From Escherichia phage vB_EcoM_APEC: a stretch of DNA of 35,832 nucleotides. The stretch is from sequence record MT664721. One strand, written 5' to 3'. Positions 2 through 33,157 of this stretch are shown piece by piece (position 1 is the first letter of the stretch; the number at the start of each line of letters is the position of its first letter). The translations under genes were made by a program, and so were the position numbers. Under the pieces are notes generated by a model. It was not told where the DNA came from. It did not search any database and worked only from the letters and a program-made list of their open reading frames with translations.

Positions 2-448
2 CGAAAAGCGACGCTAGACGATGTGCCATTGCTGATGTTATTTGCTGACTGGCTAGAGGATGAATCAGCACGATATAAGCGATTAGGCGTAAATAAAGAG
101 AAGGTGGTGAGTCATTTCACTGCCATTATCGAGAACGAGAACACAGGCGTAATTCTTCTTGCTGAACAGAATGGCATAGTTCTTGGTGGCTTTGCTGGTG
201 GTGTGTACTCTGACTGGATGACGGACAGCTTATTGACGTTTGACTATGTGAATTACGTGATGCCTGAATGTCGTGGCCTTAAGATTGGCGAGAAGCTTGT
301 GGCTGAATTTGTCAAGTGGTCAAAGCAAAGAGGTGCTAAACTTGTGCAATGTGGCACAGCGACAGGAATCACACCGGACAAAACCATAGAAATGTATAAA
401 CGGTGTGGCTTCAGAGAGCAAGGCCGATTCTTAGAAATGGAGATATAG
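2..448 (+). CDS. GNAT-family N-acetyltransferase-like protein, 3' portion; 5' end is off the window start (or wraps from 35825)
   Basis: Open frame with no stop back to position 2; motifs YVMPECRGLKIGEKL and MYKRCGF resemble GNAT acetyl-CoA binding motifs; sits after tail tubular B in T7-like order (gp13 slot). Track start is GTG at 23. Confidence 0.5.
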   Translation, partial: RKATLDDVPLLMLFADWLEDESARYKRLGVNKEKVVSHFTAIIENENTGVILLAEQNGIVLGGFAGGVYSDWMTDSLLTFDYVNYVMPECRGLKIGEKLVAEFVKWSKQRGAKLVQCGTATGITPDKTIEMYKRCGFREQGRFLEMEI

Positions 449-450
449 AC

Positions 451-906
451 ATGGGTTCTTCAGCAGCAGCAATTATGCAAGGCGCTCAGGGCATAGTACA
501 GGGGGTTGGTCTTTATCAGGAAGGACGAGCCGCAGATAAACAATCGAAAGTTGATGCGGAACTGTATCAATCAGCAGCACGAGTAGAGGCTAAAAAGATT
601 CGTGAAGCCGCAGCCAATCAAAAGTCATCTGCAATCGCACAGGCCGCAGAGAATGGACTGGATGTAAGCACAGGCACACCTGTTGTGGTGAATGACTACA
701 TCACACAGCAGTCAGAACAGGATGCATGGATGACCATATTGAATGGTCGCGAGGCTGCATCAGTAACAAGACAGCAGGGTAAGGCAGCACGGCGAGCAGG
801 AACATGGGGCTTTGTTTCTTCTGCTACAGGTGGCTTGCTTGCTGCCAAGCAGACTTTAGATACAGCTAAGTCACAAAAAAGACAGACAGCACTTTCAAAG
901 GGGTAA
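451..906 (+). CDS. hypothetical virion protein (gp14-like position)
   Basis: ATG at 451 preceded by GGAG at 439-442; Ala/Gln-rich 152 aa; assigned by position only. The track's upstream extension overlaps the previous gene. Confidence 0.45.
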   Translation: MGSSAAAIMQGAQGIVQGVGLYQEGRAADKQSKVDAELYQSAARVEAKKIREAAANQKSSAIAQAAENGLDVSTGTPVVVNDYITQQSEQDAWMTILNGREAASVTRQQGKAARRAGTWGFVSSATGGLLAAKQTLDTAKSQKRQTALSKG

Positions 907-909
907 GTT

Positions 910-2949
910 ATGGCGCGTATACCGTTGGGTAATTTTGGCAATGTTCGGCCACAGAATACAAATGCTCAGGCATCTGGTGCTGGTGCTCCTTATCAGGCTG
1001 CGGCTCAGGTCTTGAGTGCAGGTGCTAATCTTGTTGGAGCTAATTATACCAATCAGCTTCGAGAACAGAATATTGTAGACCAGATTCAAGAACGTGATGA
1101 ACGTCTTAAATTTGTTGGAATATCAAGTAAAACCGCTGCTGATATTTCCCTGCTTGATGATGACTTGACCACAAAGGTAAATGCTGGCGAGTTGAATCTT
1201 GAACAGTCTATTCAGCAACGACAGGACGGTGTTAAGGCAATTAAAGAGCGATATGCTGCTGATGTACCACAACGCTTTCAAAAGAATTTTGAGCAATGGG
1301 CTGATGTAACGGCTTATGAAAGTTCTTCAAAGCTTGCACCAGTTGTCCAGCAGATGAAGCAAAAGGAAAACCTTCTGGCGGTTGATGAAACCATTGATAA
1401 TGCACTCAAGGTAGGTGACAAGGCTCAATTCATGGCTTTGACCACTCAGGCATTAGAAGCATCGGGGCTACCTTCAAACATTAAACAACAGCGCTTACTT
1501 GAGGCTCAGACGCGTTGGGACAAGAATAGTGCATCAACTGAACTGATTGCCCTTTCAGATGCAGGGGACATAGAAGGCATTAACCAGAAATTCAGCAAAG
1601 AGGAGTTAATCAAGAACTATCCTAACCTTTCTGCTGAAAATATCTTGCAATTTCAGGAGTCAGCAGGACGAGAAGCTGATAGAATCGCGCGCGCAAAAGA
1701 AGTAGAAGAGGCCAAACGGATTAACCTTGCTGGACAGGTATTCAATGACTTTAAATCTGCCGTGCTTACTGGACGTGCTTTAACGCCAGAGCTTCAAGAG
1801 AACACACTAGCTGCGGTTCGCGGTACTGAGTATGAAGCAGAGTTTCAGTTTTATCAGCAGCAATCTAAAAACTTTGGCAAGTTCCAGAACATGAGTACAT
1901 CGGCTCAGCTTGCAGAGATCAATGCAATCAAGGCCAATCTGAAGAACAGTAAGTCAAGTGACCCTCAGACAGAAGAAAAGATACTCGGCGTTTATGAGAA
2001 CATCTATTCTGAGAAACTGAATACTATCCGCAATGACCCATCGCAAGCGGTTCGAGAGGCAGGGGTGAGAGTTCAACCTGTTACAGCAGTGCAAATTGTT
2101 GCCAATCCGCGAGCAGCAGCGGCAAGTATTGTTGAGAATGGTATCAGTCAAATGTCCCTGAAAGATGCCAATGTTTCATTAAAGCCGATTCCTGCTGAAA
2201 ACCTTCCTGAAGCTAAACAGGCATGGAATAAATTAGGCGTTGATGGAAAGCTGAATATGATTAGCGAAATGATTCGTGGTACCAGAAACGTGCCGAATGG
2301 GCCCAAAATTTGGGGTTCTGCACTTGGTCAATTGGCTGATGGCGATTTGTCCTATGTCATGGCTGGCGTTGCACGGATGAATGGCTATAGATCACAAAAG
2401 GGTGAGGATGTTGCAACAGCGATTGTGAGTGGTACCCAACTTCTGAAAAACAAGCAATTTGTCATGCCTAAAGAAGATGACATGCGAAAAGAGTTCAACA
2501 AGTATGTTGGTGGTGCTGTCACCGGAACGGATGCCAATACAATGTACTCGGCATTTAAATCATTGTATGCAAGTTCACTAAGCACTCAGGGGTTAACTCA
2601 TGAAGCCAAGGACGAGAAACCAATCTCAAGCGTACTGAATACGGCATTAAGTCTGGCAACTGGTGGCATGTATACTCAGGGTGACTTTAAAAATTATGTC
2701 GGTGGAAAGATTGAGGACTGGAAGGTATCAAAACCTTATGGCATGAGAGATGACCGTTTTGAGGCACACATTGAAGGTATGTATAAGGGACTGGCTAAGG
2801 CTAACAACGTCAGGGAGTCAGACCTTAAAACGCTAAGATTGCGACGCGCTGGCGTTAATCCGCGCAATGGTGCAATCGTGTATGATCTTATTGACGAGCG
2901 CGGTATTCCAAAGTACAGAGGAACAATGCCTAAAGGGGTTTATAAATGA
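910..2949 (+). CDS. internal virion (core) protein, 679 aa
   Basis: Large ORF in a tightly coupled run (start 4 nt after previous stop); position matches T7 gp15-like proteins. Confidence 0.55.
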   Translation: MARIPLGNFGNVRPQNTNAQASGAGAPYQAAAQVLSAGANLVGANYTNQLREQNIVDQIQERDERLKFVGISSKTAADISLLDDDLTTKVNAGELNLEQSIQQRQDGVKAIKERYAADVPQRFQKNFEQWADVTAYESSSKLAPVVQQMKQKENLLAVDETIDNALKVGDKAQFMALTTQALEASGLPSNIKQQRLLEAQTRWDKNSASTELIALSDAGDIEGINQKFSKEELIKNYPNLSAENILQFQESAGREADRIARAKEVEEAKRINLAGQVFNDFKSAVLTGRALTPELQENTLAAVRGTEYEAEFQFYQQQSKNFGKFQNMSTSAQLAEINAIKANLKNSKSSDPQTEEKILGVYENIYSEKLNTIRNDPSQAVREAGVRVQPVTAVQIVANPRAAAASIVENGISQMSLKDANVSLKPIPAENLPEAKQAWNKLGVDGKLNMISEMIRGTRNVPNGPKIWGSALGQLADGDLSYVMAGVARMNGYRSQKGEDVATAIVSGTQLLKNKQFVMPKEDDMRKEFNKYVGGAVTGTDANTMYSAFKSLYASSLSTQGLTHEAKDEKPISSVLNTALSLATGGMYTQGDFKNYVGGKIEDWKVSKPYGMRDDRFEAHIEGMYKGLAKANNVRESDLKTLRLRRAGVNPRNGAIVYDLIDERGIPKYRGTMPKGVYK

Positions 2950-5558
2950 GTATCTGGTTCTCAGAAGTAAGTGATGATGAGCAAAAGAAGGTCAATGAAG
3001 CAACCTCAAAAGGTTTGCCTTATGAACCTATAGTTAAACGTGAAGAGCCTAGCGCATTCTCAGGTTCTTTGAGTGCTCCGCTGCGTGGTGCTGCTGCTGG
3101 CTTTGCTAAGGTTGCCGATGTGGTTGCTGCACCATTTGATGCAGTGACAGACCGTTTAGCCTATACCGCAAAGGATTTAGGCTCTGAAGGTTTTATCGAG
3201 CCATATTCAGAGTTCAAGCAGACAAGGGAAGATAAACGCGACAGGCTAGTGCTGGGTGGTATTGAAGCACTGGAAGACAAGGAGAATACAGGTGCAGTGG
3301 GTCGGTTTGCCTATAGCATTTCTGACTATGTTACTCGGGGAGTAATCGGTAGTGCATTAGGTGGTATCGGTGGTGCTGCTGTTGTGACTGGTGGTTCTGA
3401 ATCAAACTATGTTTACAAGGACTTGACTAATCAGGGAATAGATGAAGACATTGCTCTGACCACTTCAATCATAGATGGCATGGTTGCTGGCGTATCTACT
3501 GCATTGCCATTGTCTTATGGATTTAAAGGAACTGGTGGTCTGGTGGCTGATGCTGCATTGTCAGTGGGTAGTGCCACAGGTATTTCAGCAGCAGGACAGG
3601 TAGCCAGTGGCGTAGTCCTTAAATCAGGTGGTTATGACAAACAGGCGCAAAAGTATGATGTAACTTGGGAGAGTCTTTCAACTGAACTTGTGCTAAATGG
3701 TCTATTGTTTGGTGCAGGAAGATACGCAAGTACACGCTTGAATAACGATATTGATGCAGAGATTGACAGCATAAGTGTTCAGGATATAGAAGCCAGAAAC
3801 ACGGAGGTACAGGCCGCATTAGCAGTTAATGAGTTACAGCTAGATAGTATCGCTCCTGTAACGCCAAAGGATGCTATTCAGGCGAACAATCACCTCAAGA
3901 ATGTTGACACGGCATTAGAACAAATTAAGTCAGGCCGCCCTGTCAATGTCCCATATAAAATACAAGGTGAAAAGAAAAAAGCGCCTATCAATTACGATAC
4001 TATGCCACTTGCCGGACAGGGTAGAACTATTGCCCGACGTGCCCAGCAGGAAGGTGTCGACCCATCTGTTGCATTGACCATTAGCCACTTGGAAACAGGC
4101 GGTCGGTTCAATCCTTCAGCAAAAAATAAATCATCTACTGCACACGGCGTATTTCAGGTTTTAGATAGGACTTGGCGTAATCTTGGTGGTGGTAATCGCA
4201 ACGATGTGAATGAGCAGATTCGCATTGGCTTAAAGCACATCAAGATGGCGAACAACTATATCAACAAGAATCTAGGCAGGCCTCCGGTAGCGCATGAACA
4301 ATATTTAGGTCACTTGCTTGGACCTGCTGGTGCAGTCAAGGTATTAAAGGCAGACCCTAAACGTCCTTTAATCGATGTGGTTCGTGAATATGACCCGAAG
4401 TATGCCAATGCTATTGTGAACAACAATGGTATGAAGGGATTAACCGTAGGTCAGGCGATTAGCAAATGGGAGAACAAATGGAATAACTTAAGTTCTCGTT
4501 ATGGTGGTGCAGAGGCTACACGTTCAACCGCAATTGCCGGGAATGGTATGCCGGTTGACGTTGCTTATGAAGTGCGTGATATACGTGACTTGCTTGTGGC
4601 ATTTGACAAGGAAGGACGTGCAAATCCTGATTCACCTATTCCTTATGACCGCACAGCAGAAACCACAATGGCTCGCATTGATGCTATGGCCAATGATCTT
4701 GATATAGGAAGGCTAGGCGATTCAATTCGCATGAGTGACGGCGCTCCTATTATTGGTATGGATAACTTTGTAGAAAGTGGCAGTGTAAGAACTGCTGCCA
4801 TTGGTCGTGCTTATGAGTCTGGCAATGCTGATGCTTATAGAAACTTTGTACAAGGTGAGGCTGATCGTCTAGGTCTTGATATTTCAGACATTGAACAGCC
4901 TGTACTCGTTCGTACCAGAACCTCAGACATTGACCGTACACAATTGGCAGGTTTGGTAAACAGTCCAGATGAACTACCGGCAATCCGCTTACCACAAGAG
5001 CAGAATAGTCGTATTGACTATGACTATGAAACCATGGCATCAGACATAACCATGGGTAAGCCTGTAGCAATTAAAGACACCATGGCTAACCTACCGCGAA
5101 CCATGGACACAGCCACAGGAATTGAAACTACTACGTTTGTCGATAATAACGGCACTCGTAATGTTTTAGCGGTACGTGATGGAAACATTGTAGGTCAGGC
5201 AAGGATTGAACCAAACACAGGCAAGATTGATTACACCTCTAGTCCTGATAGTCCAGATATTGAATCGGTGATTAGCTCAAAGGCCAATGAATACGCTACA
5301 ATCGAAACAGCTAAAACTACTGCGAGCGAGTCAGGCTTTGGTGCTTCACCGGAAGAACAGGCAGCATTGGACATTATCATGGCTAATCCTGATCAACCAA
5401 TTTCAGTCAGTCGCATAGACCCTGATGGGAATGTACAGGAAATCACCATAACCTTACGTGAACGGTTTAATGAGCTGAGAGCTGAAGCTGAAAAGGCACA
5501 GCAGGACGTTTTGGCTACACAAACTGCAATATCATGTGCGCTTAAATTTGGGGGTTGA
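2946..5558 (+). CDS. internal virion protein with lytic transglycosylase (SLT-like) domain, 870 aa
   Basis: Motif LTISHLETGGRFNPSA...AHGVFQV resembles SLT catalytic region; overlapping ATGA coupling with neighbours; Gly/Ala-rich N-terminal segment. Confidence 0.65.
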   Translation: MSIWFSEVSDDEQKKVNEATSKGLPYEPIVKREEPSAFSGSLSAPLRGAAAGFAKVADVVAAPFDAVTDRLAYTAKDLGSEGFIEPYSEFKQTREDKRDRLVLGGIEALEDKENTGAVGRFAYSISDYVTRGVIGSALGGIGGAAVVTGGSESNYVYKDLTNQGIDEDIALTTSIIDGMVAGVSTALPLSYGFKGTGGLVADAALSVGSATGISAAGQVASGVVLKSGGYDKQAQKYDVTWESLSTELVLNGLLFGAGRYASTRLNNDIDAEIDSISVQDIEARNTEVQAALAVNELQLDSIAPVTPKDAIQANNHLKNVDTALEQIKSGRPVNVPYKIQGEKKKAPINYDTMPLAGQGRTIARRAQQEGVDPSVALTISHLETGGRFNPSAKNKSSTAHGVFQVLDRTWRNLGGGNRNDVNEQIRIGLKHIKMANNYINKNLGRPPVAHEQYLGHLLGPAGAVKVLKADPKRPLIDVVREYDPKYANAIVNNNGMKGLTVGQAISKWENKWNNLSSRYGGAEATRSTAIAGNGMPVDVAYEVRDIRDLLVAFDKEGRANPDSPIPYDRTAETTMARIDAMANDLDIGRLGDSIRMSDGAPIIGMDNFVESGSVRTAAIGRAYESGNADAYRNFVQGEADRLGLDISDIEQPVLVRTRTSDIDRTQLAGLVNSPDELPAIRLPQEQNSRIDYDYETMASDITMGKPVAIKDTMANLPRTMDTATGIETTTFVDNNGTRNVLAVRDGNIVGQARIEPNTGKIDYTSSPDSPDIESVISSKANEYATIETAKTTASESGFGASPEEQAALDIIMANPDQPISVSRIDPDGNVQEITITLRERFNELRAEAEKAQQDVLATQTAISCALKFGG

Positions 5559-8089
5559 TCGTGAGAAAAGAATGTAAACAGGCAGTAGCACAGGCACTCG
5601 GCAAGGCAGAGCTTAGTACTCAGGAATCAATTGATATTGAGCAGCGCATTGCACAGGCTAAAACCAATCTGGCACGTCAAGATATACAAGCTTGGCGTAA
5701 CCTCTCACCTCTTGAACAACTCACCAAAGCAGGTGAACAGGTTGCAAAGGATATTACCGAACAGGCAAGACGCAAGAACATGATTGCGGCTCAGGATATT
5801 CTTATTCAATCACAAAACCTAGCCAAGCTTGACCATCCAACATTGTCATCCATGGAAGTAGTAGACCGACTCATTGCTGCCCATGGTGATATGTCTGGAA
5901 TTCAATCTATTGATTCTAAATCTCGTGCTATTGCTTCAACATATCGGGGCAGACTGGTGGACCTGTATTCAAATGTTAAAGGTGCAATAGGCGTATTTAC
6001 TGACAAGCAGTTGGTTCAGGACATTATCAGGGAGCGTTTTGGACAGAATACAGATAACGCCGTTGCCAAAAAAATATCAGATGAAATGGGCAAAGTCTTT
6101 GATGATATGCGAGAACGATTTAATCGCTCAGGTGGAGACATTGGTAAGCTGGACAATTGGGGATTACCTCAGACCCATGATGCAGCCAAGATGCTTAAAG
6201 CAGGAAAGGATGCATGGGTAAATGCTACAGAGAACATTGTCGATACCTCAAAATATATCCATGAAGACGGAACGTACTATACAGGCGACGAGATCAAGAA
6301 GCTGTTAGAGAATGCCTTCGATACAATCACCAGTGATGGTGCAAACAAGATTGAGATCGGCAGACAGGCAACAGGTGGTGGCACAAGTAAAGTCACTAAT
6401 CGCCACTCTGAGAGTCGTGTAATTCACTTTAAAGATGCAGATGCTTGGCTTGAGTATCAGGCAGACTTTGGTGGTATGCCATTTGTAGACCTTGTAGAAG
6501 CACATATTAATGGCCTGTCTAAGGATATTGCACTGGTTGAAAACCTAGGCAGCAATCCAAAAAACTCAATGAAAATCCTGATGGATGCCGCAGCCAAAAA
6601 AGACTTTGACAAGGGTATCGAAGCCAAAGACACACAGAAGACACGCAAACGCGCTCAAACCATGTTTGACGAACTAACAGGTGGTAATACACCAGAGTCG
6701 GAAGTATTGGCTAATCTTGGCATTGCATACCGTTCTATGAACGTTGCATCCATGCTGGGTGGTACAACATTATCATCTTTGACTGACCAAGCCATGATCA
6801 AAAAGACAGCAGATATTCACGGCATTGCTTTCCGTAAAACCTTTGGTGAACTGCTAACACAGCTTAACCCGAAGAACAAGGCAGATCGTGAACTTGCACA
6901 TAGCTTAGGCTTGGCAACAGAAGAAATGCTCGGCTCACTGGCTCGCTTTGCTGACGATGGTTTAACTTCTGTACACGGTAAAGCTGAGAAACTGGCAAGA
7001 GTTTCAAGTGGCGTGGCTACTCAGGTTATGCGCCTGTCCGGATTAAATGCATTAACTGCCGCATCCAAGGTTGGCTTTAGTAAAATGCTGATGAGCAAGT
7101 ATGGCGAACTTACACGTAACAAGGCTTGGAATGATTTGTCTGAAATGGACAGAGAACTACTAAGCAAAACCGGACTGTCAGAGCGAGCGTGGGAAGTGAT
7201 GCGTCTTGCTGAGCCTGTCATTGACCGCAAAGGCAATAAGCTCATGTCAAACCGTTCAATCTATGAAATACCAGACGATAAGCTTAAGGCGTTTGGCAAT
7301 CCTAAAAAGGTTCGTGATGAAGTGGCTACACAGTTTCAGGCACACTTACTTGACGAGCAAGGCATGGCGGTAGTAGAAGCTGGACTTCGAGAACGTACTT
7401 TCCTGACTGCTGGACTATCCAAAGGTTCAGTGATGGGAGAGATTGTTCGCTCAATGATGCAGTTTAAATCCTTCCCTGCTGCCTTCTTAATGCGTCACGG
7501 TAGCCGAGCAATGAGTAAGCCAACATTAGGCAGTAGGGTAGGCTATGCTGCATCCATTCTGGCAATGACGACAATACTTGGCGGTCTTGTAGTGCAGTTA
7601 AAAGAACTGGCAAATGGTAATGACCCTCAGACCATGTTTGACAGTGAAGACCCGAAAGTAACTGGCTCGTTCTTTGTTCGCTCAGTGGTACAGGGTGGTG
7701 GCCTATCTATTCTAGGTGACATTCTGGTTGCCGGTTCTGATACTTCGGGACGCGGTGTAGACTCATTCTTTGGTGGGCCATTCGCTCAAGATGTTAAATC
7801 TGTTGCTGGTGTTACGCTCGGCAATGCAACGCAGTATTATGAAGACAAAGATACTAATGCAGCTAACGAGCTGTATCGACTCGTAAAAGGCAAGATTCCC
7901 GCCCAAAATCTCTGGTACACTAAAGCAGCGGCGAACCGTTTAATGTTTGATGAAATTCAGGATATTGTCGCACCAGATTACCGTCAGAAGCTTTTAGACA
8001 AGGCGGAACGTGAGCAAAACCGTACAAGATTTTGGGGTGATGATCTTGGTGACATTCAAACACCAGACTTTGAGAAAGTTGTTCAGTAG
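5555..8089 (+). CDS. internal virion / ejection protein, 844 aa
   Basis: Large coupled ORF after the SLT protein; hydrophobic segment (ASILAMTTILGGLVVQL); assigned by position. Confidence 0.5.
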   Translation: MIVRKECKQAVAQALGKAELSTQESIDIEQRIAQAKTNLARQDIQAWRNLSPLEQLTKAGEQVAKDITEQARRKNMIAAQDILIQSQNLAKLDHPTLSSMEVVDRLIAAHGDMSGIQSIDSKSRAIASTYRGRLVDLYSNVKGAIGVFTDKQLVQDIIRERFGQNTDNAVAKKISDEMGKVFDDMRERFNRSGGDIGKLDNWGLPQTHDAAKMLKAGKDAWVNATENIVDTSKYIHEDGTYYTGDEIKKLLENAFDTITSDGANKIEIGRQATGGGTSKVTNRHSESRVIHFKDADAWLEYQADFGGMPFVDLVEAHINGLSKDIALVENLGSNPKNSMKILMDAAAKKDFDKGIEAKDTQKTRKRAQTMFDELTGGNTPESEVLANLGIAYRSMNVASMLGGTTLSSLTDQAMIKKTADIHGIAFRKTFGELLTQLNPKNKADRELAHSLGLATEEMLGSLARFADDGLTSVHGKAEKLARVSSGVATQVMRLSGLNALTAASKVGFSKMLMSKYGELTRNKAWNDLSEMDRELLSKTGLSERAWEVMRLAEPVIDRKGNKLMSNRSIYEIPDDKLKAFGNPKKVRDEVATQFQAHLLDEQGMAVVEAGLRERTFLTAGLSKGSVMGEIVRSMMQFKSFPAAFLMRHGSRAMSKPTLGSRVGYAASILAMTTILGGLVVQLKELANGNDPQTMFDSEDPKVTGSFFVRSVVQGGGLSILGDILVAGSDTSGRGVDSFFGGPFAQDVKSVAGVTLGNATQYYEDKDTNAANELYRLVKGKIPAQNLWYTKAAANRLMFDEIQDIVAPDYRQKLLDKAEREQNRTRFWGDDLGDIQTPDFEKVVQ

Positions 8090-8097
8090 AGGTGAAT

Positions 8098-8271
8098 ATG
8101 AGTATTTTAAAACACATGTGGAATAACCTTACGTGCAAACATGTATATAAAAAGGTTAGAACTATACACGGCGATGAAATAATTTTCTTGAATTACTCAA
8201 GAAGCGAGTGGGTTTGTAAAAAGTGTGGAAATATTTATTATTCAGAATACCTTGACCGCATAGCGAAGTAA
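8098..8271 (+). CDS. small Cys/His-rich (zinc-ribbon-like) protein, 57 aa
   Basis: ATG at 8098 with GAGGTGA upstream; CKH...CKKCG pattern; below the ORF-track size cutoff; fills the gap before the next gene. Confidence 0.35.
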   Translation: MSILKHMWNNLTCKHVYKKVRTIHGDEIIFLNYSRSEWVCKKCGNIYYSEYLDRIAK

Positions 8272-8280
8272 GGAGGCAGA

Positions 8281-8673
8281 ATGAAAGACATAGATATTTA
8301 TGACCTCGACCTGTCCGATTCAGATATTGATGAACTGGAACGGCGCAGAGAGTTAAGGATTAAAAAACGCATTAATGAACGACATGCTTTGCAGACTGCT
8401 TTAATGTGCGATGACCTGATTGACGAGTCAATGAAAATGGCAAACAGGGGATTAAAAGCAGTTGACCCTGAATCTAAAAACGAGTTCTTTGGATTGAGCA
8501 ATAAAGTTGCCACGCTTGCAGTAAAGATGCAGCAAATCCACTTGATGAAAGTCGGCTTGCTTCCTCCTGTTTCAGCGACAAAGGACACTCAGGAGAGCTA
8601 CGAGGCCAAAGTCATTAAAGAGTATGAAGAACGAGCACAGCGGCGCAAAGAACAAGTCACAAGAGTATCTTAA
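8281..8673 (+). CDS. putative terminase small subunit, 130 aa
   Basis: GGAGG at 8272-8276; sits immediately upstream of and overlapping the terminase large subunit; no motif recognised, positional call. Confidence 0.4.
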   Translation: MKDIDIYDLDLSDSDIDELERRRELRIKKRINERHALQTALMCDDLIDESMKMANRGLKAVDPESKNEFFGLSNKVATLAVKMQQIHLMKVGLLPPVSATKDTQESYEAKVIKEYEERAQRRKEQVTRVS

Positions 8674-10346
8674 TGAAGATTAGTTTCTCTGCTTTTTTTC
8701 TGATGTATGTTGAAGGTCGATTGGGGCTAGAAGCTCCCGACTTTCATTTAGATGCTTGTGACTTCCTGCAAGATTTTGCAATGGGTGGAGAGAATGACCC
8801 CGATGTGGCTGTACTAATGTTTCCGCGCGGCCACTCTAAATCTACCAATCTTGATATATTCAATGCTTGGCTAATTTATGAAGACCCTGAACATTGGATA
8901 TTACATCAGGGGACGGCAGACCGTGACGCTTACAAGTGTAGTCGCGGTACATTGGCCGTACTTAAAACCCATCCTCTAACTGAAAACAACGAGCTATTCA
9001 AGAAGCGAGAAGGAACTACATCTAAATGGTGGGTAAATGGCTCAACAGATGAGCGTTACGGTACGTTCTTTGCTGCTGGTATCTTATCCGGTGTGACTGG
9101 ACAACGTGCAACATTCATCGAAAATGATGACGTTGAAACACCAAAAACCACAAATAATCAAGAGAAGCGAGAGAAGCTTAAAACCACACTAGGCGAGCAA
9201 ACGCATATTGCTGTGCCGAACACCAAAACTTTATTTATTGGCACACCACACAGTCATGATTCACTGTATACGCACTTAATTGAAAAAGGTGCTAAGACGC
9301 TGATTCTAAAGATGTTTGAGAAGGAATATAGGATTGAAAAAGGACAGACTAAAGCGGTCATCCCTTTTGCACCAGTACATGCTTTTGCTGGAATCGGAAA
9401 AGGTGCTAAGTATCTCTATCCTGATAAAGATTATTCTGTTCATGAGATTGATGGTTTTTACCATATAGAAATCTTTGGCGAGCATAACCTTGTTGATTTC
9501 TACTCAAAAAGTATTTGGGAAAAGCGGTTTACTCCGAAGGAAATGGAGAAGCGCCGTGTTAAGTGCGAAACAATTAATGAGTGGGATTCACAGTATCAGA
9601 TGCACGCCCGACCTGTAGGCAATATGCGTCTTGACCCTGATTACCTGAAGCCATATTTAGAAGAGCCCCGACTTGTCACAGCCAATGGAGAAACACGGCT
9701 GTATATCGGTGAGAATAGAATTGTTTCCGTATCGGCCCACCTAGACCCATCATCAGGCAAGAAGAACCGCGATGTGTCAAGCTTTACCATTCTTTTCCAA
9801 GATGATATAGGTCGCTTATATTGGCATCGTTCTGTTGGTCTAACAGGAAAGATTATTAACGTTGATGAGGAAGGTAATATCTGTACAGGTGGTCAAGCGT
9901 GGACTGTCGCCGATTTGGTCAAAGAGTTTAACCTTCCTGCCGTGACGGTAGAAACAAACGGTATTGGGGGCCACGTTCCTGATAACCTTCTTGCAGTATT
10001 TAAAAAACGCAAGATTCGCTGCGCCGTTCAGGGCATACATGAAAGCAAGAACAAGAACATTCGTATCTTAGGGGCTATAGAAGGACCTTTATTGTCTGGC
10101 TATCTATATGCACATGAAAGCATTCTGAAAGATGAGAACGGCAACGATTCGGATATTGTTAAAAAAATGCGTGTATTTAACCCTGAAACACAAGATAATC
10201 CTGATGATGAGATTGATTCACTTGCGAAGGCAATCAGTAATGAGCCTGTTCGCATGGGCCGTAATCTTGAACATTTTAGCGATACCAGACCAGACTGGCG
10301 CGGTATCCAGACCAACACCAAAGCCAAGTCAGCACACAGATATTAA
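8673..10346 (+). CDS. terminase large subunit (T7 gp19-like DNA maturase B)
   Basis: N-terminal ATPase region LMFPRGHSKST resembles T7 gp19 FRGIGKS Walker A region; 557 aa. Confidence 0.85.
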   Translation: MKISFSAFFLMYVEGRLGLEAPDFHLDACDFLQDFAMGGENDPDVAVLMFPRGHSKSTNLDIFNAWLIYEDPEHWILHQGTADRDAYKCSRGTLAVLKTHPLTENNELFKKREGTTSKWWVNGSTDERYGTFFAAGILSGVTGQRATFIENDDVETPKTTNNQEKREKLKTTLGEQTHIAVPNTKTLFIGTPHSHDSLYTHLIEKGAKTLILKMFEKEYRIEKGQTKAVIPFAPVHAFAGIGKGAKYLYPDKDYSVHEIDGFYHIEIFGEHNLVDFYSKSIWEKRFTPKEMEKRRVKCETINEWDSQYQMHARPVGNMRLDPDYLKPYLEEPRLVTANGETRLYIGENRIVSVSAHLDPSSGKKNRDVSSFTILFQDDIGRLYWHRSVGLTGKIINVDEEGNICTGGQAWTVADLVKEFNLPAVTVETNGIGGHVPDNLLAVFKKRKIRCAVQGIHESKNKNIRILGAIEGPLLSGYLYAHESILKDENGNDSDIVKKMRVFNPETQDNPDDEIDSLAKAISNEPVRMGRNLEHFSDTRPDWRGIQTNTKAKSAHRY

Positions 10347-10357
10347 GGGGATTTTTA

Positions 10358-12787
10358 ATGTCAGTACCAAATCAGATACCTGAAAGTAATTATGTAGGTA
10401 ACGGCACGACAACAACATTTGCTGCTAATTTTGAATATGCAAGTGATTCAGATGTGTTTGTTACTGTAAATGGAGTTGCACCAGAAATCGGACAGGCCGT
10501 CTTTGCTAATGGTGTATTTACTTTTATTACAGCCCCAGCAAACGGTACAGCAGTTCGCGTATATCGCAGCACACCAATTGAACGAGACACGGAATACGAT
10601 AACCACGACAATGTATTTCGTCCAAGAGTGGTTAATATTGACTTTGATCGTGTCTGGTTTGTGCTTCAAGAGTACCTATTATCGCTGGGCATTACCAACG
10701 CTAGGATTACACAGGAAATAGCAGACCGCATTCAAGCCGATGCAGAAATGATGAACTACATTCTGAATGAGGATAATGAACTAAAGGCCGACTATATCCT
10801 TCGTGATGAAAACCTTAAAACGGATTATATATACAGGGATGAGAACCTGAAAAAATATGTTGATCAAACATTGGGCGCTCTACTTAATCTTCCAGACTTT
10901 CAGGGAATTGAGGCACAATTTGTTAAAGATGTAAGCGGAAAGAACCAGCAAGAGATTAATAACGCTCTTGCTGGTGTTGGTGAAAAAGTCAAAAGAGAGT
11001 TTGTTTCAGTGTGGGATTTCTTTACAACCTCTGAGTATGCAACGTACAAAGCATCCCCAACAGCATTTGACGCAAGCAGACCCGTTCAAGAATTTTTCAA
11101 TTATATTGTTGCAAACGATACTCGTGTTGCCTACTGTTCAGGTGATTTTGTAACAAGTCAAGACCTTTTGCTTGGTTCTGGCTCAGCAAAAACAAAGCTG
11201 TTGTTCGGGAATGCTTCATTCAAAGCACTTAATGCTATTGATACGGTACTCAATATTAATGCCGGCTCTGATTTTGAGTGGGTTGGAATGATTACAACAA
11301 CAGGAACAGGAAGCACTGGGTCTAATTCTTATAATTCCCGAACTTGTCGAGTTGGCGTGCAAATAAGCTCACCTGGCAAAGCCTCACCACGGAACAAGTA
11401 CACAGCAATCACAGCAAACAATTTCAAAGAATTTGGGGTTTTTGCTAATGGCGTTGCTTCTCTTTCTTCCCTTGGATTCATCAGATCAAGTAATTGCGGT
11501 TCTGGCAAAAAAACAGCAGGCTACAGCCTTACTTCAAATTTCTCTAATGCAACAAATAGCGGCAGTTCTGGCTCAGTAAGTCAATTAACAACACTTGATG
11601 TTGATACTCTACCATCATCAGATTTAGCATCAGCTAACACAAACACACTACCCCTGCAAGCTATTATCAACGGCACGCCGTACTACATTCAGTCTATAGA
11701 TCGAGTTAATAACAAGATCACCATATTCCCGTGGATTGAGCCATCAATAACATCGGGAACCTTAACTTACATGTTCGGGGGTGCTGTTTGTGTTAATGGC
11801 AGGGATTCCTCTGTACTCGGAATTGAAATGATTGATGCGGTTAACTGCGGTGCTGCTTTAGTCTCCGGTGCATTATACCCCCCTGTTGTTGAGCGTATTG
11901 TTTCTCAAGTAAACGGTGCTGCGTTAGTGTTAGGTCAAAACCCTGCCTCTGCAATGATCGGTGGTTCTGTTGGTACTCTATATTGTGAAAACAATGACTT
12001 TGATTTAATTCGTGTTACTCGTTCAAAATTAAGTTTCAACATTCTTAACACTGTTGCATTTAACATGAACAAAGTCGGCTTTGCTTGTGCGACACGCTCA
12101 ACATCCGGCTCATACAGTGCTTTTGCGCATTTAAAAGGAATTAATATTTTTGAAAACGGTGTTCCTGTTCAATACCAGAGAAGCTCTGCTAGTCTTCCCT
12201 CACAAGCAACATGTGATGTGACCGACCCAAACAATAGTGATTTTATTTTCAATGGTGGTGCAACGGCTTCAACAATTACTTTAGGCACTCCAAACGATAA
12301 CTATGCAAACCTATTTGGTATTTATAAAAAGCGCGTTATTGTCTACGGAACAGGTCCGAACAACAGGCCTTCAACTGTAAACTTCACCGTTGCTGACACT
12401 GCAAACTACACGATCAATGCAGCAGGTACAACAACCACATCATATAGCGGATTTGATGGTTTTGCTGTATTCGATATTATTTATCGAAGTGACACAAAAC
12501 GCTTTTTAATATCACAAGTCAGCAATCGAGATAGGGCGGCGTCTGTAACATATAATCCGCCATCACTAACAGCATCAGGCACAGCAGGGGATTTTGTTTC
12601 AACGACAGTGAACTTAACTGGTGCAACTGTTGGAACGCCAGTTCACGCCGCTTTCACTCAATACAATGCTGATATTGAAATTAGTGCGCAAGTAAGTGCA
12701 GAAAATACTGTCACAGTTAAGTTCAAAAATACTTCTGCTGCTGCTGTTGATTTATCAAGTGGAACACTAACAGTAAAACTAATTTAA
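10358..12787 (+). CDS. tail fiber / tailspike protein, possible depolymerase
   Basis: N-terminus resembles the T7 gp17-type virion-attachment domain; Gly/Ser/Thr/Asn-rich C-terminal part typical of beta-helical tailspikes; followed by an intrinsic terminator. Confidence 0.8.
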   Translation: MSVPNQIPESNYVGNGTTTTFAANFEYASDSDVFVTVNGVAPEIGQAVFANGVFTFITAPANGTAVRVYRSTPIERDTEYDNHDNVFRPRVVNIDFDRVWFVLQEYLLSLGITNARITQEIADRIQADAEMMNYILNEDNELKADYILRDENLKTDYIYRDENLKKYVDQTLGALLNLPDFQGIEAQFVKDVSGKNQQEINNALAGVGEKVKREFVSVWDFFTTSEYATYKASPTAFDASRPVQEFFNYIVANDTRVAYCSGDFVTSQDLLLGSGSAKTKLLFGNASFKALNAIDTVLNINAGSDFEWVGMITTTGTGSTGSNSYNSRTCRVGVQISSPGKASPRNKYTAITANNFKEFGVFANGVASLSSLGFIRSSNCGSGKKTAGYSLTSNFSNATNSGSSGSVSQLTTLDVDTLPSSDLASANTNTLPLQAIINGTPYYIQSIDRVNNKITIFPWIEPSITSGTLTYMFGGAVCVNGRDSSVLGIEMIDAVNCGAALVSGALYPPVVERIVSQVNGAALVLGQNPASAMIGGSVGTLYCENNDFDLIRVTRSKLSFNILNTVAFNMNKVGFACATRSTSGSYSAFAHLKGINIFENGVPVQYQRSSASLPSQATCDVTDPNNSDFIFNGGATASTITLGTPNDNYANLFGIYKKRVIVYGTGPNNRPSTVNFTVADTANYTINAAGTTTTSYSGFDGFAVFDIIYRSDTKRFLISQVSNRDRAASVTYNPPSLTASGTAGDFVSTTVNLTGATVGTPVHAAFTQYNADIEISAQVSAENTVTVKFKNTSAAAVDLSSGTLTVKLI

Positions 12788-12792
12788 AGATT

Positions 12793-12818
12793 AAAGCCCT
12801 TCGGGGCTTTTCTTTTAC
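12793..12818 (+). terminator. rho-independent terminator after tail fiber gene
   Basis: Hairpin AAAGCCC-TTCG-GGGCTTT followed by TCTTTT. Confidence 0.6.
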
Positions 12819-12867
12819 TTACCAAATATGTTTGCTACTATAAGCGAAATTGATATAGGACTAACCG

Positions 12868-13206
12868 ATGGAAGATTTTGCAAAAGCTGTAGCGGATTAC
12901 TTCCGAAGCAATATAGGCTTGCTATCTGGCGTAGTGATAGGAATGCTTATTTATATTCTGACTGCGAAAAAAAAGACATGGCGAGAGAGGATTGTTAATG
13001 CTTCAGGTGGTGGCCTGCTGGCAATAGTTTTTGCTCCACACATTGCTACATTCTTTGACAAGCCGAATTACGCTGTGCCTATTGCGGTTCTTATTGTGTA
13101 TTTCAACGAGTGGTTACCAGAACTTATACAAACCTTTGCACCGAAATACATTAAAGTCCTCATTAAGCGTTTTACCGGAGTTGACCTAGATGACTCAAAT
13201 AAGTAA
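12868..13206 (+). CDS. holin-like membrane protein, 112 aa
   Basis: Two to three predicted hydrophobic helices; directly upstream of the endolysin. Confidence 0.5.
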   Translation: MEDFAKAVADYFRSNIGLLSGVVIGMLIYILTAKKKTWRERIVNASGGGLLAIVFAPHIATFFDKPNYAVPIAVLIVYFNEWLPELIQTFAPKYIKVLIKRFTGVDLDDSNK

Positions 13207-13474
13207 CTTCACATGGGGAGTGTTGCTAGAGAATCTAGCACTCTTTATTGTATTCCTGTGTATTGCAAGCGTGGTTATACAGCACATGCGAAAGCAAATT
13301 GTATTGGGCGTATTCTGGCATATATCTTTTGTTATTGGTCTAGTGATTACTTTTACACTAATACTTGACCCATATCCTAGAATATTTGATGAAGCACAAA
13401 CAGCATATAAGTTATTTATTGCTGTAATTGCCGTTGGACTCTGCAATAAAATAAGCAAAGAAGGTGGGTTCTAA
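13190..13474 (+). CDS. membrane protein, 94 aa (second holin / antiholin candidate)
   Basis: Multiple hydrophobic segments; overlaps previous gene; precedes the endolysin. Confidence 0.45.
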   Translation: MTQISNFTWGVLLENLALFIVFLCIASVVIQHMRKQIVLGVFWHISFVIGLVITFTLILDPYPRIFDEAQTAYKLFIAVIAVGLCNKISKEGGF

Positions 13475-13475
13475 T

Positions 13476-14084
13476 ATGATCATGACAGAGAAAGGCTTTG
13501 CTGTTTTAAGGTCACATTTTGGTAGCTTGAAGCAATCGCAAGTTGACGGAATTAATACCATTGTTGAGCAGTTCAATGCTCAGGGTGTGACCAACTACAA
13601 CCATGCAGCCTACATGCTCGCTACAACTTGGCATGAAACTGCAAAAACCATGCAGCCAATTGAAGAATATGGAAAGGGTAAAGGCCGTCCTTATGGAACA
13701 TGGTACAAGAACAGCAAGGGTCTGCTTTACAGCTTTATAAACGGATTTAAAAAGGTTGCCTATCTGTTCAATGACCATCCCCATCTCTATTATGGTCGTG
13801 GCTACGTGCAACTTACATGGTTTGAAAACTACCAGAGAGCATCCAAGAAACTCGGCGTAGACTTTATAAATAATCCAGGGCTTGCACTAGACCCTAAACC
13901 TGCTGCTGATATTATGATTGTCGGAATGCGTGAAGGTTGGTTTACCGGAAAGAAACTGGATGATTACATTTCAGGAAATAAAAAAGATTACGTGGGCGCA
14001 AGGAAGATTATCAACGGACTAGATAAAGCTAAACTCATTGCTGATTACTCTGCAATATTTGAAAAGGCTTTGCGCCAGCCATAA
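13476..14084 (+). CDS. endolysin, glycoside hydrolase family 19 (chitinase-like) type
   Basis: Motifs HETAK...YYGRGYVQLTW resemble GH19 catalytic region; ATG at 13476 with AAGGTGGG upstream (track starts at GTG 13464). Confidence 0.75.
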   Translation: MIMTEKGFAVLRSHFGSLKQSQVDGINTIVEQFNAQGVTNYNHAAYMLATTWHETAKTMQPIEEYGKGKGRPYGTWYKNSKGLLYSFINGFKKVAYLFNDHPHLYYGRGYVQLTWFENYQRASKKLGVDFINNPGLALDPKPAADIMIVGMREGWFTGKKLDDYISGNKKDYVGARKIINGLDKAKLIADYSAIFEKALRQP

Positions 14085-14087
14085 GAA

Positions 14088-14107
14088 AAGCCCCATTATA
14101 GGGGCTT
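14088..14107 (-). terminator. intrinsic terminator between convergent transcription units (U-tract on minus strand)
   Basis: Hairpin AAGCCCC-ATTATA-GGGGCTT; the T-run follows only in the minus orientation; overlaps the last codons of the minus-strand gene 14096..14293. Confidence 0.55.
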
Positions 14108-14293
14108 GATATACATAGACTGGGTTATTTTGCCCATACATGATCTTGACCATTCTCCAAAACAATAGCCATAGAGAACACCATCAACATATTTGTAATA
14201 TAAGAACCCTCTTTCATTATCTATTCCAGCTCTCTCTGGTCTGTAATGCGTAGCGCCGTTAGGTGCATTTTCCTTTATTTCTTGCTCTGTCAT
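14096..14293 (-). CDS. hypothetical protein, 65 aa (paralog of 20887..21078)
   Basis: Shares MT.EEI...AP.GATHY N-terminus and IKPL C-terminus with the plus-strand 63 aa protein; terminal gene of the minus-strand operon. Confidence 0.5.
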   Translation of the reverse strand: MTEQEIKENAPNGATHYRPERAGIDNERGFLYYKYVDGVLYGYCFGEWSRSCMGKITQSMYIKPL

Positions 14294-14463
14294 TTTACTT
14301 CCTCACTTAACTTCTGTATCCCAAACTCATCATGAAACATCTGATACGATAATACCGCCTTCCATTGCTGACAGCTATCCAGCCATATATACCACTCATT
14401 CTCTGCAACTTTCATCCAATAATCCAGTCCATCCCAATGAGTAGCGCCTAGAGGTTTAGTCAT
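14290..14463 (-). CDS. hypothetical protein, 57 aa
   Basis: ATG (rc of 14461-14463) with GAGGTGA upstream, 2 nt after the stop of the upstream gene; the track's longer version overlaps the neighbour out of frame. Confidence 0.4.
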   Translation of the reverse strand: MTKPLGATHWDGLDYWMKVAENEWYIWLDSCQQWKAVLSYQMFHDEFGIQKLSEEVK

Positions 14464-14839
14464 GCTCACCTCGCAGGGCTTTATGTTCATGATCACCAAA
14501 GTATTCTTTATTTTCGTATCTATTGTTATTGCAGTTAAAACAATGCAATAGACTAAAACCTTCACGGTCACTAACAATTCCCTGCCAAGGTTCACCACAT
14601 GAACAAGTTCCGTGAATCATGGCTGACATAGATTGGCTCTTCCAGGCTTTAAGCTGAGCATTTAAATCATTAATTACTTTCTGCTGCTCTTGGAATGCGT
14701 ACCATGCGCCGTTTATCCAGCAAACAAGCTTTTGAAAGTTGATTAAGTCCGAGTGATACAAATTGTCATCACCAAAATAAATATGCTGGCTAAGACTATT
14801 TGCAATCTCAGGCAACTTCTCAAACTGTTCTCTCATCAC
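14456..14839 (-). CDS. hypothetical Cys-rich protein, 127 aa
   Basis: CSCGEPW...HCFNCN pattern suggests metal binding; tightly coupled in the minus-strand operon. Confidence 0.5.
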   Translation of the reverse strand: MMREQFEKLPEIANSLSQHIYFGDDNLYHSDLINFQKLVCWINGAWYAFQEQQKVINDLNAQLKAWKSQSMSAMIHGTCSCGEPWQGIVSDREGFSLLHCFNCNNNRYENKEYFGDHEHKALRGEHD

Positions 14840-15718: not shown

Positions 15719-16330
15719 TCAATACATTTCCAAAATTTTGTCTTTAATTGCTTGGGTCTGTTCATTGTAGAGCTTGACCAAGGCTTCTATGTTTTCAATC
15801 TTATCTCTTACATCATTCGCATAAACACGTTTAACAAATAACGGAAGATTCGGGCAGTAGCTTACAAAGTCCATCCATTGAAGTTCTGCACAGGAAATAC
15901 CGCCTATCAGTTGATCTATATGCTCCTTCGGTATTTCACCTGAACGCAAGATAGCAATCTGAGTCTTTGGTGTTTTAACCTTAATCTCTATGCCTCCAAT
16001 AGGGATTTTATCAGGAATGATCAATCCATCTGGTGAATAACCAAATCCCTTATTCTTCACAAAAGAAACCATAGAAACCGTATAGCCTGTCTTTTCCTCA
16101 TACCGCTGACGTGCTTTAGATTCTAGCTGCTGACCTCTTTTAGTCCATTCATTACCCTGAAAAACCTCTGCCGGTTCATGATTAATTAACTCATAAGCCA
16201 GACCATTAATATAGCTCTGAGCGCCTACTCCATTTGCCCGAATGGTTGAAATCTCCGAACAGGTGATTAGACCTAAGCGCAAGTCCAACCACTCAGGAGA
16301 ACCCTGTTCTATTCCGGTGATGATTTGCAT
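15719..16330 (-). CDS. YqaJ-like (lambda-exonuclease-type) recombination exonuclease
   Basis: N-terminal QGSPEWLDLRLGLITCSE resembles the YqaJ family; PD-(D/E)xK-like SPDG...EIK; paired with the ERF gene. Confidence 0.75.
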   Translation of the reverse strand: MQIITGIEQGSPEWLDLRLGLITCSEISTIRANGVGAQSYINGLAYELINHEPAEVFQGNEWTKRGQQLESKARQRYEEKTGYTVSMVSFVKNKGFGYSPDGLIIPDKIPIGGIEIKVKTPKTQIAILRSGEIPKEHIDQLIGGISCAELQWMDFVSYCPNLPLFVKRVYANDVRDKIENIEALVKLYNEQTQAIKDKILEMY

Positions 16331-17028
16331 TATTCACCCTTTTCCAGCTTGGCTAATTTGGTATTTAAAACCCCGACCCAATAATCGAAATCATTTTTAG
16401 GTATCTCGTGCAACTCACAGCCAATATGAGCCTCCATTAATCCTCTTGCTTCTGCACCAAACTGAGATAACTTTTTCTCTATAACAGAAACTTGCTGCGG
16501 TGAAATCGTAATAGCCACCTGCCCATCGTTATCTTCAGCAATAACCAGACCTAGCAATGCTCGCATAGTGTAACGCTGTGCATAACTAATTGCTGAGCCA
16601 TAAGACTGTATATCTGACTTGCTGCCTCCCTTATCCGGCGCAACCTCCATTGAAGACTCTTCGCTGTGCCCACCAACGTGCGAGCAGATGCACGTAACGC
16701 GAGATTTACCATCAGCACATGCTTGGGTAGCCCATCGAATAAACAAGCCATGCTTACGCAATACAGGGTCAATACGGCTTTGTATATACTCAAGCTTTGC
16801 ATACTTAGAGTTATGACCACGACTAGACTTTTCCAAAACTGGTTTTTCCATTTGAAATGCCAGCATTGCCTGATCAAATTGCTGCTTGGCCTGATTGCGC
16901 TGTACACGTTCATGAAGCTCAAGCATCTTTTCAAGTTTCCCCACGTCTGCATCTGGACTGGTTGCAACACGTTCAATAATGCTAATCATCGGGTCAACAT
17001 TATTATTTCTTTCGATTAACTCACTCAT
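16330..17028 (-). CDS. ERF-family single-strand annealing protein
   Basis: SKYAKLEYIQSRIDPVLRKHGL and SYAQRYTMRALLGL resemble conserved ERF regions (P22 Erf type); first gene of the minus-strand operon. Confidence 0.8.
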   Translation of the reverse strand: MSELIERNNNVDPMISIIERVATSPDADVGKLEKMLELHERVQRNQAKQQFDQAMLAFQMEKPVLEKSSRGHNSKYAKLEYIQSRIDPVLRKHGLFIRWATQACADGKSRVTCICSHVGGHSEESSMEVAPDKGGSKSDIQSYGSAISYAQRYTMRALLGLVIAEDNDGQVAITISPQQVSVIEKKLSQFGAEARGLMEAHIGCELHEIPKNDFDYWVGVLNTKLAKLEKGE

Positions 17029-32180: not shown

Positions 32181-32194
32181 TCAGGAGCTAACAC

Positions 32195-33085: not shown

Positions 33086-33120
33086 TTGCTAACAAGCCTG
33101 AATAAAATACATTAAACTAA

Positions 33121-33146
33121 GGGTATCTTGAAGATGCCCTTTTTTA
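33121..33146 (+). terminator. rho-independent terminator after the capsid gene
   Basis: GGGTATC-TTGAA-GATGCCC (one G-U pair) followed by TTTTTT. Confidence 0.6.
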
Positions 33147-33157
33147 ATGGAGCAGAT

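What the first reader, a model, noticed from the sequence alone, without database searches (positions are those of the whole stretch)
10358..12787. Tail fiber/tailspike with a T7-like N-terminal anchor, a near-tandem peptide repeat and a probable enzymatic C-terminal body
The N-terminus resembles the virion-attachment domain of T7-type fibers. The DNA at about 10781-10850 encodes the near-tandem repeat ADYILRDENLK / TDYIYRDENLK. The remainder is Gly/Ser/Thr/Asn-rich, as in beta-helical depolymerases, so this gene probably determines host range and may degrade capsule or LPS.
Basis: partly seen in the sequence, partly recalled or inferred. Interest (0 to 1): 0.4.

Follow-up and report, generated by a model that had tools for sequence, protein, structure and literature searches.

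The report
Modular phage tailspike with beta-helix body
This gene encodes an ordinary but uncharacterised phage tailspike: a T7-type virion anchor, a helical neck containing an 11-residue repeat whose copy number varies between sibling phages, and a swappable beta-helix body that probably cuts a host surface polysaccharide.

Summary
ORF 10358-12787 (+, 809 aa) is real. It is the gene annotated "tail fiber protein" in Escherichia phage vB_EcoM_APEC (MT664721). The peptide repeat ADYILRDENLK/TDYIYRDENLK lies at aa 144-165 (nt 10787-10852), with 9 of 11 residues identical; none of 300 shuffles exceeded 7.

The interpretation also holds in outline.
- **Anchor:** aa 1-~110 is a distant T7 gp17-type anchor. 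It falls below the Pfam cutoff itself, but all 12 aligned N-domain sequences (the query and 11 relatives) match PF03906 at E <= 0.01. An N-domain profile hits the phiAB6 tailspike and Dpo31/Dpo36 chains in the PDB.
- **Cassette:** the body is a swapped cassette. A sibling metagenomic phage is 93-95% identical in DNA on both sides and unrelated across 10961-12832. A 73%-identical body sits in a myovirus baseplate module.
- **Family:** the body family is large (1269 clusters) and matches nothing in Pfam, NCBIfam or PDB sequences; PHROGs matches only the N-terminal and last domains.

Enzymatic activity is inferred from conserved polar residues and from published halo plaques. It is not shown, and the substrate is unknown. 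This is a new member of a known kind and of low to moderate interest.

The parts
10358..12787 (+). Tailspike gene, 809 aa (GenBank: 'tail fiber protein' of Escherichia phage vB_EcoM_APEC)
   Evidence: ORF list. 100% identical protein P0001, named by NCBI, on a 35832-bp contig.
10345..10350 (+). AAGGGG ribosome-binding-like site, 7 nt before the ATG, overlapping the terminase stop codon
   Evidence: Sequence printed.
10358..10687 (+). N-terminal virion-anchor domain (aa 1-~110), T7 gp17 N-domain superfamily
   Evidence: PF03906 at E 8.6e-4 for the whole protein and 6.2e-5 for the domain alone, both below cutoff. phrog_1640 'tail protein' at 2.8e-16. Profile A4 hits 9s0y, Dpo31/Dpo36, phiAB6 and LME-1 orf22 in the PDB. 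AF2 predicts a beta domain, pLDDT 79-91 over aa 11-70.
10688..10972 (+). Helical neck (aa ~111-205), probably a trimeric coiled coil; low-confidence helices in the monomer model
   Evidence: AF2 helices 94-109, 114-137, 140-146, 151-176, 181-188, 197-204 with pLDDT 50-68. Hydrophobic periodicity 3.6 over aa 94-176.
10754..10786 (+). Degenerate first repeat unit NYILNEDNELK (aa 133-143)
10787..10852 (+). Two 11-residue repeat units, ADYILRDENLK and TDYIYRDENLK (aa 144-165). One unit (33 nt) is absent from sibling phages.
   Evidence: The sibling L006 lacks exactly 33 nt here. Copy number among homologues is 1, 2, or 3 plus an insert.
10886..10960 (+). Conserved junction motif NLPDFQGIEAQFVKDxSGxxQQEIN (aa 177-201), the left recombination boundary of the body cassette
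   Evidence: Homologues with different bodies share sequence up to here and diverge immediately after. DNA identity with L006 ends at 10960.
10961..12832 (+). Swapped cassette: body, C-terminal domains and terminator, flanked by DNA 93-95% identical to a sibling phage
   Evidence: blastn of the window against L006 gives 92.6% for 8098-10960, nothing for 10961-12832, and 94.9% for 12833-14475.
10991..12157 (+). Right-handed parallel beta-helix body (aa ~212-600) with an N-terminal helical cap and a conserved inserted segment (aa ~416-465)
11804..12004 (+). Stretch holding the most conserved polar residues, the candidate active site: D483, Y507, Q517, Y542, E544, N546, D549. R328, Q409 and K572 lie outside it.
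   Evidence: Column conservation in 107 homologues of 26-73% identity: E544 99%, Y542 99%, Y507 98%, Q409 97%, R328 96%, D483 92%. A 19%-identical homologue keeps Q409, Y507, Y542, E544, N546 and D549.
12215..12517 (+). First C-terminal beta domain (aa ~620-720)
12521..12784 (+). Last beta-sandwich domain (aa 722-809), an optional and separately mobile module
   Evidence: 68 of the collected family members stop aligning before this domain, and many of them end at about aa 710-720. It is 51% identical to the C-terminus of the 787-aa protein downstream of the baseplate genes of Acinetobacter phage SR (Obolenskvirus). phrog_23388 at 8.8e-9.
12793..12810 (+). Terminator-like hairpin AAAGCCC-TTCG-GGGCTTT followed by a T-run, 6 nt after the stop codon
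   Evidence: This is a consensus scan only, and the number of sites found does not exceed the shuffle expectation.

Best explanation
The gene encodes the single receptor-binding tailspike of a T7-type short-tailed phage. The protein is presumably a homotrimer. Its N-terminal beta domain (aa 1-~110) would dock on the tail tube A/nozzle junction, as T7 gp17 does. A helical neck (aa ~111-205) contains a hendecad-like 11-residue repeat whose copy number differs between sibling phages and so sets neck length. A conserved junction motif (aa 177-201) acts as the recombination boundary. Behind it a right-handed beta-helix body (aa ~212-600) binds, and most likely cleaves, a host surface polysaccharide (capsule or O-antigen), letting the virion reach the outer membrane. 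Two C-terminal beta domains (aa ~620-720 and 722-809) would stabilise the trimer and/or add glycan binding. Shown here: the gene, the repeat, the module borders, the cassette exchange, the predicted fold and the conserved residues. Inferred: trimer formation, coiled-coil neck, catalysis, substrate and mechanism class. A glycosidase using the D483/E544/D549 carboxylates is slightly favoured over a lyase.
Confidence: 0.7

Rival explanations
1. A non-catalytic receptor-binding tailspike. The beta-helix only binds a surface glycan or protein, and the conserved polar residues form a binding site or serve folding and trimer contacts.
Against: An acidic/aromatic constellation is conserved across homologues of 19-40% identity, while the rest of the surface diverges. 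The closest structural matches are dominated by enzymes and phage depolymerases. Halo plaques are reported.
Confidence: 0.2
2. The body is a polysaccharide lyase acting by beta-elimination on a uronic-acid-containing capsule. It would use Tyr/Arg/Lys residues (Y507, Y542, R328, K572) rather than a carboxylate pair.
Confidence: 0.3
3. The 11-residue repeat is an incidental recent duplication with no structural role.
For: A sibling phage 92.6% identical in this region lacks exactly one 33-nt unit.
Against: The two units differ at 11 of 33 bases while keeping 9 of 11 residues, and 5 conserved residues use different codons. This argues for an old duplication kept by selection on the peptide. The motif xDYIxRDExLK recurs in 1 to 3 copies in all close N-module homologues. 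The 11-residue register of hydrophobic positions extends to neighbouring rows.
Confidence: 0.15

Closest known systems
T7 gp17 tail fibre N-terminal domain (Pfam PF03906) as used by podovirus tailspikes, e.g. Acinetobacter phage phiAB6 tailspike (PDB 5js4) and Klebsiella phage Dpo31/Dpo36
   Same: An N-terminal beta domain of about 110 aa followed by a helical segment. The N-domain profile aligns to the N-termini of these chains. The gene set includes T7-type tube A and nozzle partners.
   Different: Very divergent. The query scores 19.5-23.2 bits against a 25.2-bit cutoff, and T7 gp17 itself is reached only at E 0.062. The gene lies after the terminase rather than after the internal core genes as in T7.
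Right-handed beta-helix tailspike depolymerases (Sf6, HK620, CBA120 TSP2, KP32gp38, and the Acinetobacter phage APK16, Belisarius and Fri1 spikes)
   Different: Sequence identity is 8-13%, with no profile-level sequence similarity to any solved chain. Catalytic residues cannot be transferred. Activity and substrate are untested.
Pectate_lyase_3 / RHGA-epimerase-like beta-helix domain (Pfam PF12708)
   Same: The homologues P0023 and P0031 hit the first ~27-60 positions of this model. The distant homologue P0009 starts its body with the typical FDFGAIGDG cap.
   Different: The query has VSVWDFFT in place of the GAxGDG cap and gets no PF12708 or PF13229 hit even at E <= 10. P0023 is just below cutoff, at 26.8 against 27 bits.
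Tail spike locus of Acinetobacter temperate podophages (TPWB-05; Alcaligenes phage Piluca) and the Obolenskvirus myovirus tailspikes
   Same: Gene order is the same: terminase large subunit, spike, holin, endolysin. The N-module is 41-43% identical. The last 80 aa are 51% identical to the corresponding protein of Obolenskvirus phage SR.
   Different: The bodies differ. Among isolated phages only the Acinetobacter johnsonii podovirus AJO1 carries a related body, at 36% identity.

Membership tests
T7 gp17-type tail fibre N-terminal anchor (PF03906) | Score at or above the Pfam gathering cutoff (25.2 bits) | tested here: not met
   19.5 bits for the whole protein and 23.2 bits for aa 1-135 alone.
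T7 gp17-type tail fibre N-terminal anchor (PF03906) | Transitive or profile-level homology to bona fide members | tested here: met
   All 12 aligned N-domain sequences (query plus 11 relatives) match PF03906 at E <= 0.01, the best at 4.2e-22. P0023 scores 78.4 bits and aligns to query aa 7-169 at E 5e-11. Profile A4 hits the phiAB6 tailspike at 7.6e-10 and Dpo31/Dpo36 at 6.7e-11, but T7 gp17 only at 0.062.
T7 gp17-type tail fibre N-terminal anchor (PF03906) | Docking partners (gp11-like tail tube A, gp12-like nozzle) encoded by the same phage | tested here: met
   PF17212 Tube at 33128-33721 (22.8 bits against a 22.3 cutoff) and PF25675 nozzle at 33651-35828 (33.2 against 27).
T7 gp17-type tail fibre N-terminal anchor (PF03906) | Physical attachment at the tube/nozzle interface as a trimer | not testable with these tools
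   Only monomer prediction was available.
Right-handed parallel beta-helix tailspike depolymerases (pectin-lyase fold) | Right-handed parallel beta-helix fold of the central body | tested here: met
Right-handed parallel beta-helix tailspike depolymerases (pectin-lyase fold) | Identifiable catalytic residues in a substrate groove | tested here: inconclusive
   Conserved residues are D483, Y507, Y542, E544, D549, R328, Q409 and K572. Their 3D positions could not be inspected, and no alignment to known catalytic residues was possible.
Right-handed parallel beta-helix tailspike depolymerases (pectin-lyase fold) | Homotrimer | not testable with these tools
   No multimer prediction was available. 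Inferred from the family.
Right-handed parallel beta-helix tailspike depolymerases (pectin-lyase fold) | Polysaccharide-degrading activity (halo, oligosaccharide release) | not testable with these tools
   Indirect only: the paper reports halos around plaques (PMC8229158). The protein itself was never tested.
Pfam beta-helix families PF12708 / PF13229 | Significant HMM match | tested here: not met
   No Pfam hit for aa 200-601, 600-721 or 720-809 at E <= 10. The homologue P0023 scores 26.8 bits, below the 27-bit cutoff.

The most novel reading that the evidence does not exclude
The body (aa ~212-720) may be the first isolated-phage example of a large glycan-depolymerase family that has no structure and no classification. 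The family has at least 1269 clusters at 50% identity and no Pfam, CAZy-type or PDB sequence relative. It would have its own catalytic constellation (D483, Y507, Y542-x-E544, D549) and moves as a cassette between podovirus anchors and myovirus baseplates. The variable-copy 11-residue neck repeat would be a simple length-tuning device for the spike.
Probability: 0.4. Interest if true: 0.4.

Novelty: new member of a known kind. Interest (0 to 1): 0.25.

Why it matters
The practical value is modest. This is the only candidate for the halo-forming depolymerase of a published phage whose paper studied only the endolysin. The mapping gives clean domain borders for expressing the body (about aa 205-809) and names residues to mutate. 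It also documents an exact recombination junction, the motif at aa 177-201 with DNA identity ending at nt 10960, which could be used to engineer host range in this phage group. The body family is abundant in metagenomes and has no structural or biochemical representative. Its genomic affinities point to Acinetobacter rather than E. coli, which bears on what substrate to test.

Tried and rejected
- A megablast of the gene against the phage collection found nothing.
- A second search of the 5.8-billion-protein database, using only the N-terminal 210 aa, returned no scored hit despite obvious relatives. That search was wasted.
With 17 closer sequences it found only a 25%-identical Paenibacillus locus and gave no host clue.
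- A profile search of the body against PDB sequences gave only chance-level hits: EAP/MAP domain at E 0.045 on the last domain.
- Pfam at E <= 10 on three body fragments found nothing, and NCBIfam gave only a chance-level hit (E 0.17, 12 bits).
- Tandem Repeats Finder does not see the repeat at DNA level.
- I considered an auto-cleaved intramolecular chaperone C-terminus (Peptidase_S74). Only the unrelated C-terminus of P0034 carries PF13884, and the query's last domain is a beta sandwich resembling tailspike C-domains, so I rejected it.
- I tried to fit the repeat to canonical hendecad core positions (a, d, e, h). Only positions 3/4 and 10 are hydrophobic and d/e are R/D, so the coiled-coil assignment stays tentative.

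Full report
**Identity of the window.** The 809-aa product of ORF 10358-12787 is 100% identical to the protein NCBI names "tail fiber protein [Escherichia phage vB_EcoM_APEC]", on a 35832-bp contig. The window is therefore that phage genome, MT664721, described in PMC8229158. That paper lists the gene (ORF8) only as a structural protein and studies the endolysin. It notes that plaques on E. coli APEC O78 carry semi-transparent halos "suggesting a depolymerase".

**The observation.**
- The ORF is the only long one in the interval. It follows the terminase large subunit by 11 nt and has an AAGGGG site 7 nt before its ATG.
- The repeat ADYILRDENLK/TDYIYRDENLK is at aa 144-165, nt 10787-10852.
- Nine of 11 residues are identical at offset 11. 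The best of 300 shuffles reached 7.
- The DNA copies share only 22 of 33 bases, and five conserved residues use different codons. This is an old duplication kept at peptide level, invisible to TRF.
- A degenerate third unit, NYILNEDNELK, precedes the two.
- The G/S/T/N richness of the remainder is confirmed: about 40% against 16% in the neck.

**Anatomy: four or five modules.** BLAST against the 33 homologues from the large protein database splits the protein at about aa 205. Residues 1-~205 are 66-86% identical to proteins that carry unrelated C-terminal parts (P0013, P0015, P0018, P0019, P0030). Residues 209-809 are 66-73% identical to proteins with other N-termini (P0003 to P0006).

At DNA level, a sibling 36-kb metagenomic phage (L006) compares as follows:

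| Window interval | Identity to L006 |
|---|---|
| 8098-10960 | 92.6% |
| 10961-12832 | no similarity |
| 12833-14475 | 94.9% |

This is a textbook cassette replacement. Its left border is the conserved motif NLPDFQGIEAQFVKDxSGxxQQEIN (aa 177-201). Its right border lies in the intergenic region after a terminator-like hairpin at 12793-12810. The closest body, P0003 at 73%, lies behind Baseplate_J, wedge and gp53-like genes of a 42-kb myovirus-type contig. The body therefore moves between tail morphotypes.

**N-terminal anchor.**
- The query's own match to PF03906 is below the cutoff: 19.5 bits for the whole protein and 23.2 bits for the domain alone, against 25.2.
- I aligned the domain with relatives: metagenomic proteins plus the Acinetobacter TPWB-05, Alcaligenes Piluca, Yersinia YeP5, Synechococcus S-TIP37 and Pseudomonas phiNV3 fibres.
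- All 12 aligned sequences (the query and these 11 relatives) match PF03906 at E <= 0.01, the best at 4e-22.
- The profile finds solved podovirus fibre and spike N-termini: 9s0y at 9e-23, Dpo31/Dpo36 at 7e-11 and the phiAB6 tailspike at 8e-10. LME-1 orf22 (E 1.9e-7) is also found. T7 gp17 is reached only marginally, at 0.062.
- The window encodes the T7-type partners: tail tube A (PF17212), nozzle (PF25675) and portal (PF12236).
- I conclude that this is a divergent member of the gp17 N-domain superfamily.

**Neck and repeat.** AlphaFold2 (monomer, 34-sequence alignment) predicts helices over aa 94-204 at pLDDT 50-68. That is expected for a segment that needs partners. Hydrophobicity has a 3.6-residue period, and an 11-residue register with hydrophobic residues at positions 3/4 and 10 extends over five rows.

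Among close homologues the unit xDYIxRDExLK occurs in different copy numbers:

| Copies | Proteins |
|---|---|
| 1 | P0009, P0015, P0017, P0018, P0019, P0030 |
| 2 | this phage, P0007, P0008 |
| 3 plus a 40-aa insert | P0002, P0013 |

The sibling L006 lacks exactly 33 nt. Copy number does not track body type. The simplest reading is a trimeric, hendecad-like coiled-coil neck whose length varies in 11-residue steps. This is inference.

**Body.**
- Residues ~212-590 are modelled at pLDDT mostly above 90, as a long run of short strands.
- Dozens more right-handed beta-helix enzymes follow.
- Foldseek ranks the Sf6, KP32gp38, HK620 and APK16 tailspikes first, at E 3e-5 to 1e-3 but with low TM-scores.
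- By sequence the body is unclassified. Pfam, NCBIfam and PHROGs give no meaningful match over aa 210-720 (NCBIfam only a chance-level 12-bit hit). A 107-sequence profile finds no solved chain.
- An exhaustive HMMER scan nevertheless finds 1269 clusters at 50% identity with E <= 1e-3, and 173 with E <= 1e-30.
- In 107 members of 26-73% identity, the near-invariant polar residues are R328, Q409, D483, Y507, Y542 and E544. D448, Q517, N546, D549, K572 and R580 are conserved at 79-88%.
- A 19%-identical member, P0009, still carries the usual FDFGAIGDG cap of PF12708-type spikes. It keeps Q409, Y507, Y542, E544, N546 and D549 but has N at position 483.
- D483, Y507 and Y542/E544 are spaced 24 and 35 residues apart, about one helix turn each. 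This suggests a row along one face. I could not inspect the coordinates, so this remains an inference.
- Conservation of this kind argues for catalysis. It does not separate hydrolase from lyase.

**Context and caveats on the host.** The gene order (terminase large subunit, spike, holin, GH19 endolysin) is shared with sibling metagenomic phages and with Acinetobacter phage TPWB-05 and Alcaligenes phage Piluca. The Piluca paper calls that phage a temperate podophage related to A. baumannii prophages (PMC9022569).

Several facts sit uneasily with the published description:
- The window has 41.3% G+C.
- All 20 megablast matches of its first 25 kb in the phage collection are Acinetobacter phages. 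There is no match in 5,426 complete E. coli genomes.
- The paper reports a contractile-tailed myovirus infecting E. coli O78, K-12 and K. pneumoniae subsp. ozaenae. The genome encodes a T7-type short tail and no sheath or baseplate.

The substrate of the spike is therefore more likely an Acinetobacter-type capsule than O78 LPS. Nothing here proves that.

**Verdict.** This is a modular tailspike of a well-known kind. Its particular body belongs to a large family that has never been characterised, and its neck repeat varies in copy number between siblings. Nothing suggests a new mechanism. I rate novelty as a new member of a known kind and interest at about 0.25.

Noticed in passing
window 29571-35828 and 23-8089: The published description (vB_EcoM, a myovirus with a 146-nm contractile tail) conflicts with the gene content. 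The window encodes a T7-type portal, capsid, tail tube A, nozzle and three large internal virion proteins, and no sheath, tube or baseplate genes. The imaged particle may not be the sequenced phage.
   Followed up: partly
whole window: G+C is 41.3%. All 20 nucleotide-level matches in the phage collection are Acinetobacter phages, and there is no match in 5,426 complete E. coli genomes. The relatives are Acinetobacter or Alcaligenes temperate podophages. The natural host is probably Acinetobacter-like rather than E. coli.
   Followed up: partly
window 2946-5558: An 870-aa internal virion protein combines a ddrB-like ParB-superfamily domain (PF18763, aa 533-658) with a transglycosylase/glucosaminidase-like segment (aa ~340-525). 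This is an unusual pairing for an ejection protein.
   Followed up: no
window 12793-12810: A terminator-like GC hairpin with a T-run lies 6 nt after the spike stop codon. It sits inside the swapped cassette, so the cassette appears to carry its own terminator.
   Followed up: no
window 12868-14084: The lysis cluster comprises a 112-aa holin candidate, a 94-aa ORF at 13190-13474 overlapping both neighbours (not analysed further), and a GTG-started GH19 endolysin (the published LysO78).
   Followed up: no
window 15719-17028 (minus strand): Two minus-strand ORFs of 203 and 232 aa match in length and position the PF09588 YqaJ / PF04404 ERF recombination pair of sibling contigs L003 and L006. The window ORFs themselves were not scanned. 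The paper reports CI/Cro-type regulators, which suggests a temperate lifestyle, but I did not look for an integrase.
   Followed up: no
L008 (SRR27853835 contig, 41.9 kb) 8001-10190: A myovirus-type contig carries a body 73% identical to this spike directly after Baseplate_J, wedge and gp53-like genes, followed by the same type of GH19 endolysin. This is exchange of the receptor-binding body between tail morphotypes.
   Followed up: partly
window 33128-33721 / 33651-35828: The listed tail tube A and nozzle ORFs overlap by 71 nt. The nozzle ORF probably starts at a later codon than the mechanical ORF call gives. The structural module is split across the ends of the window, so the record is circularly permuted.
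   Followed up: no
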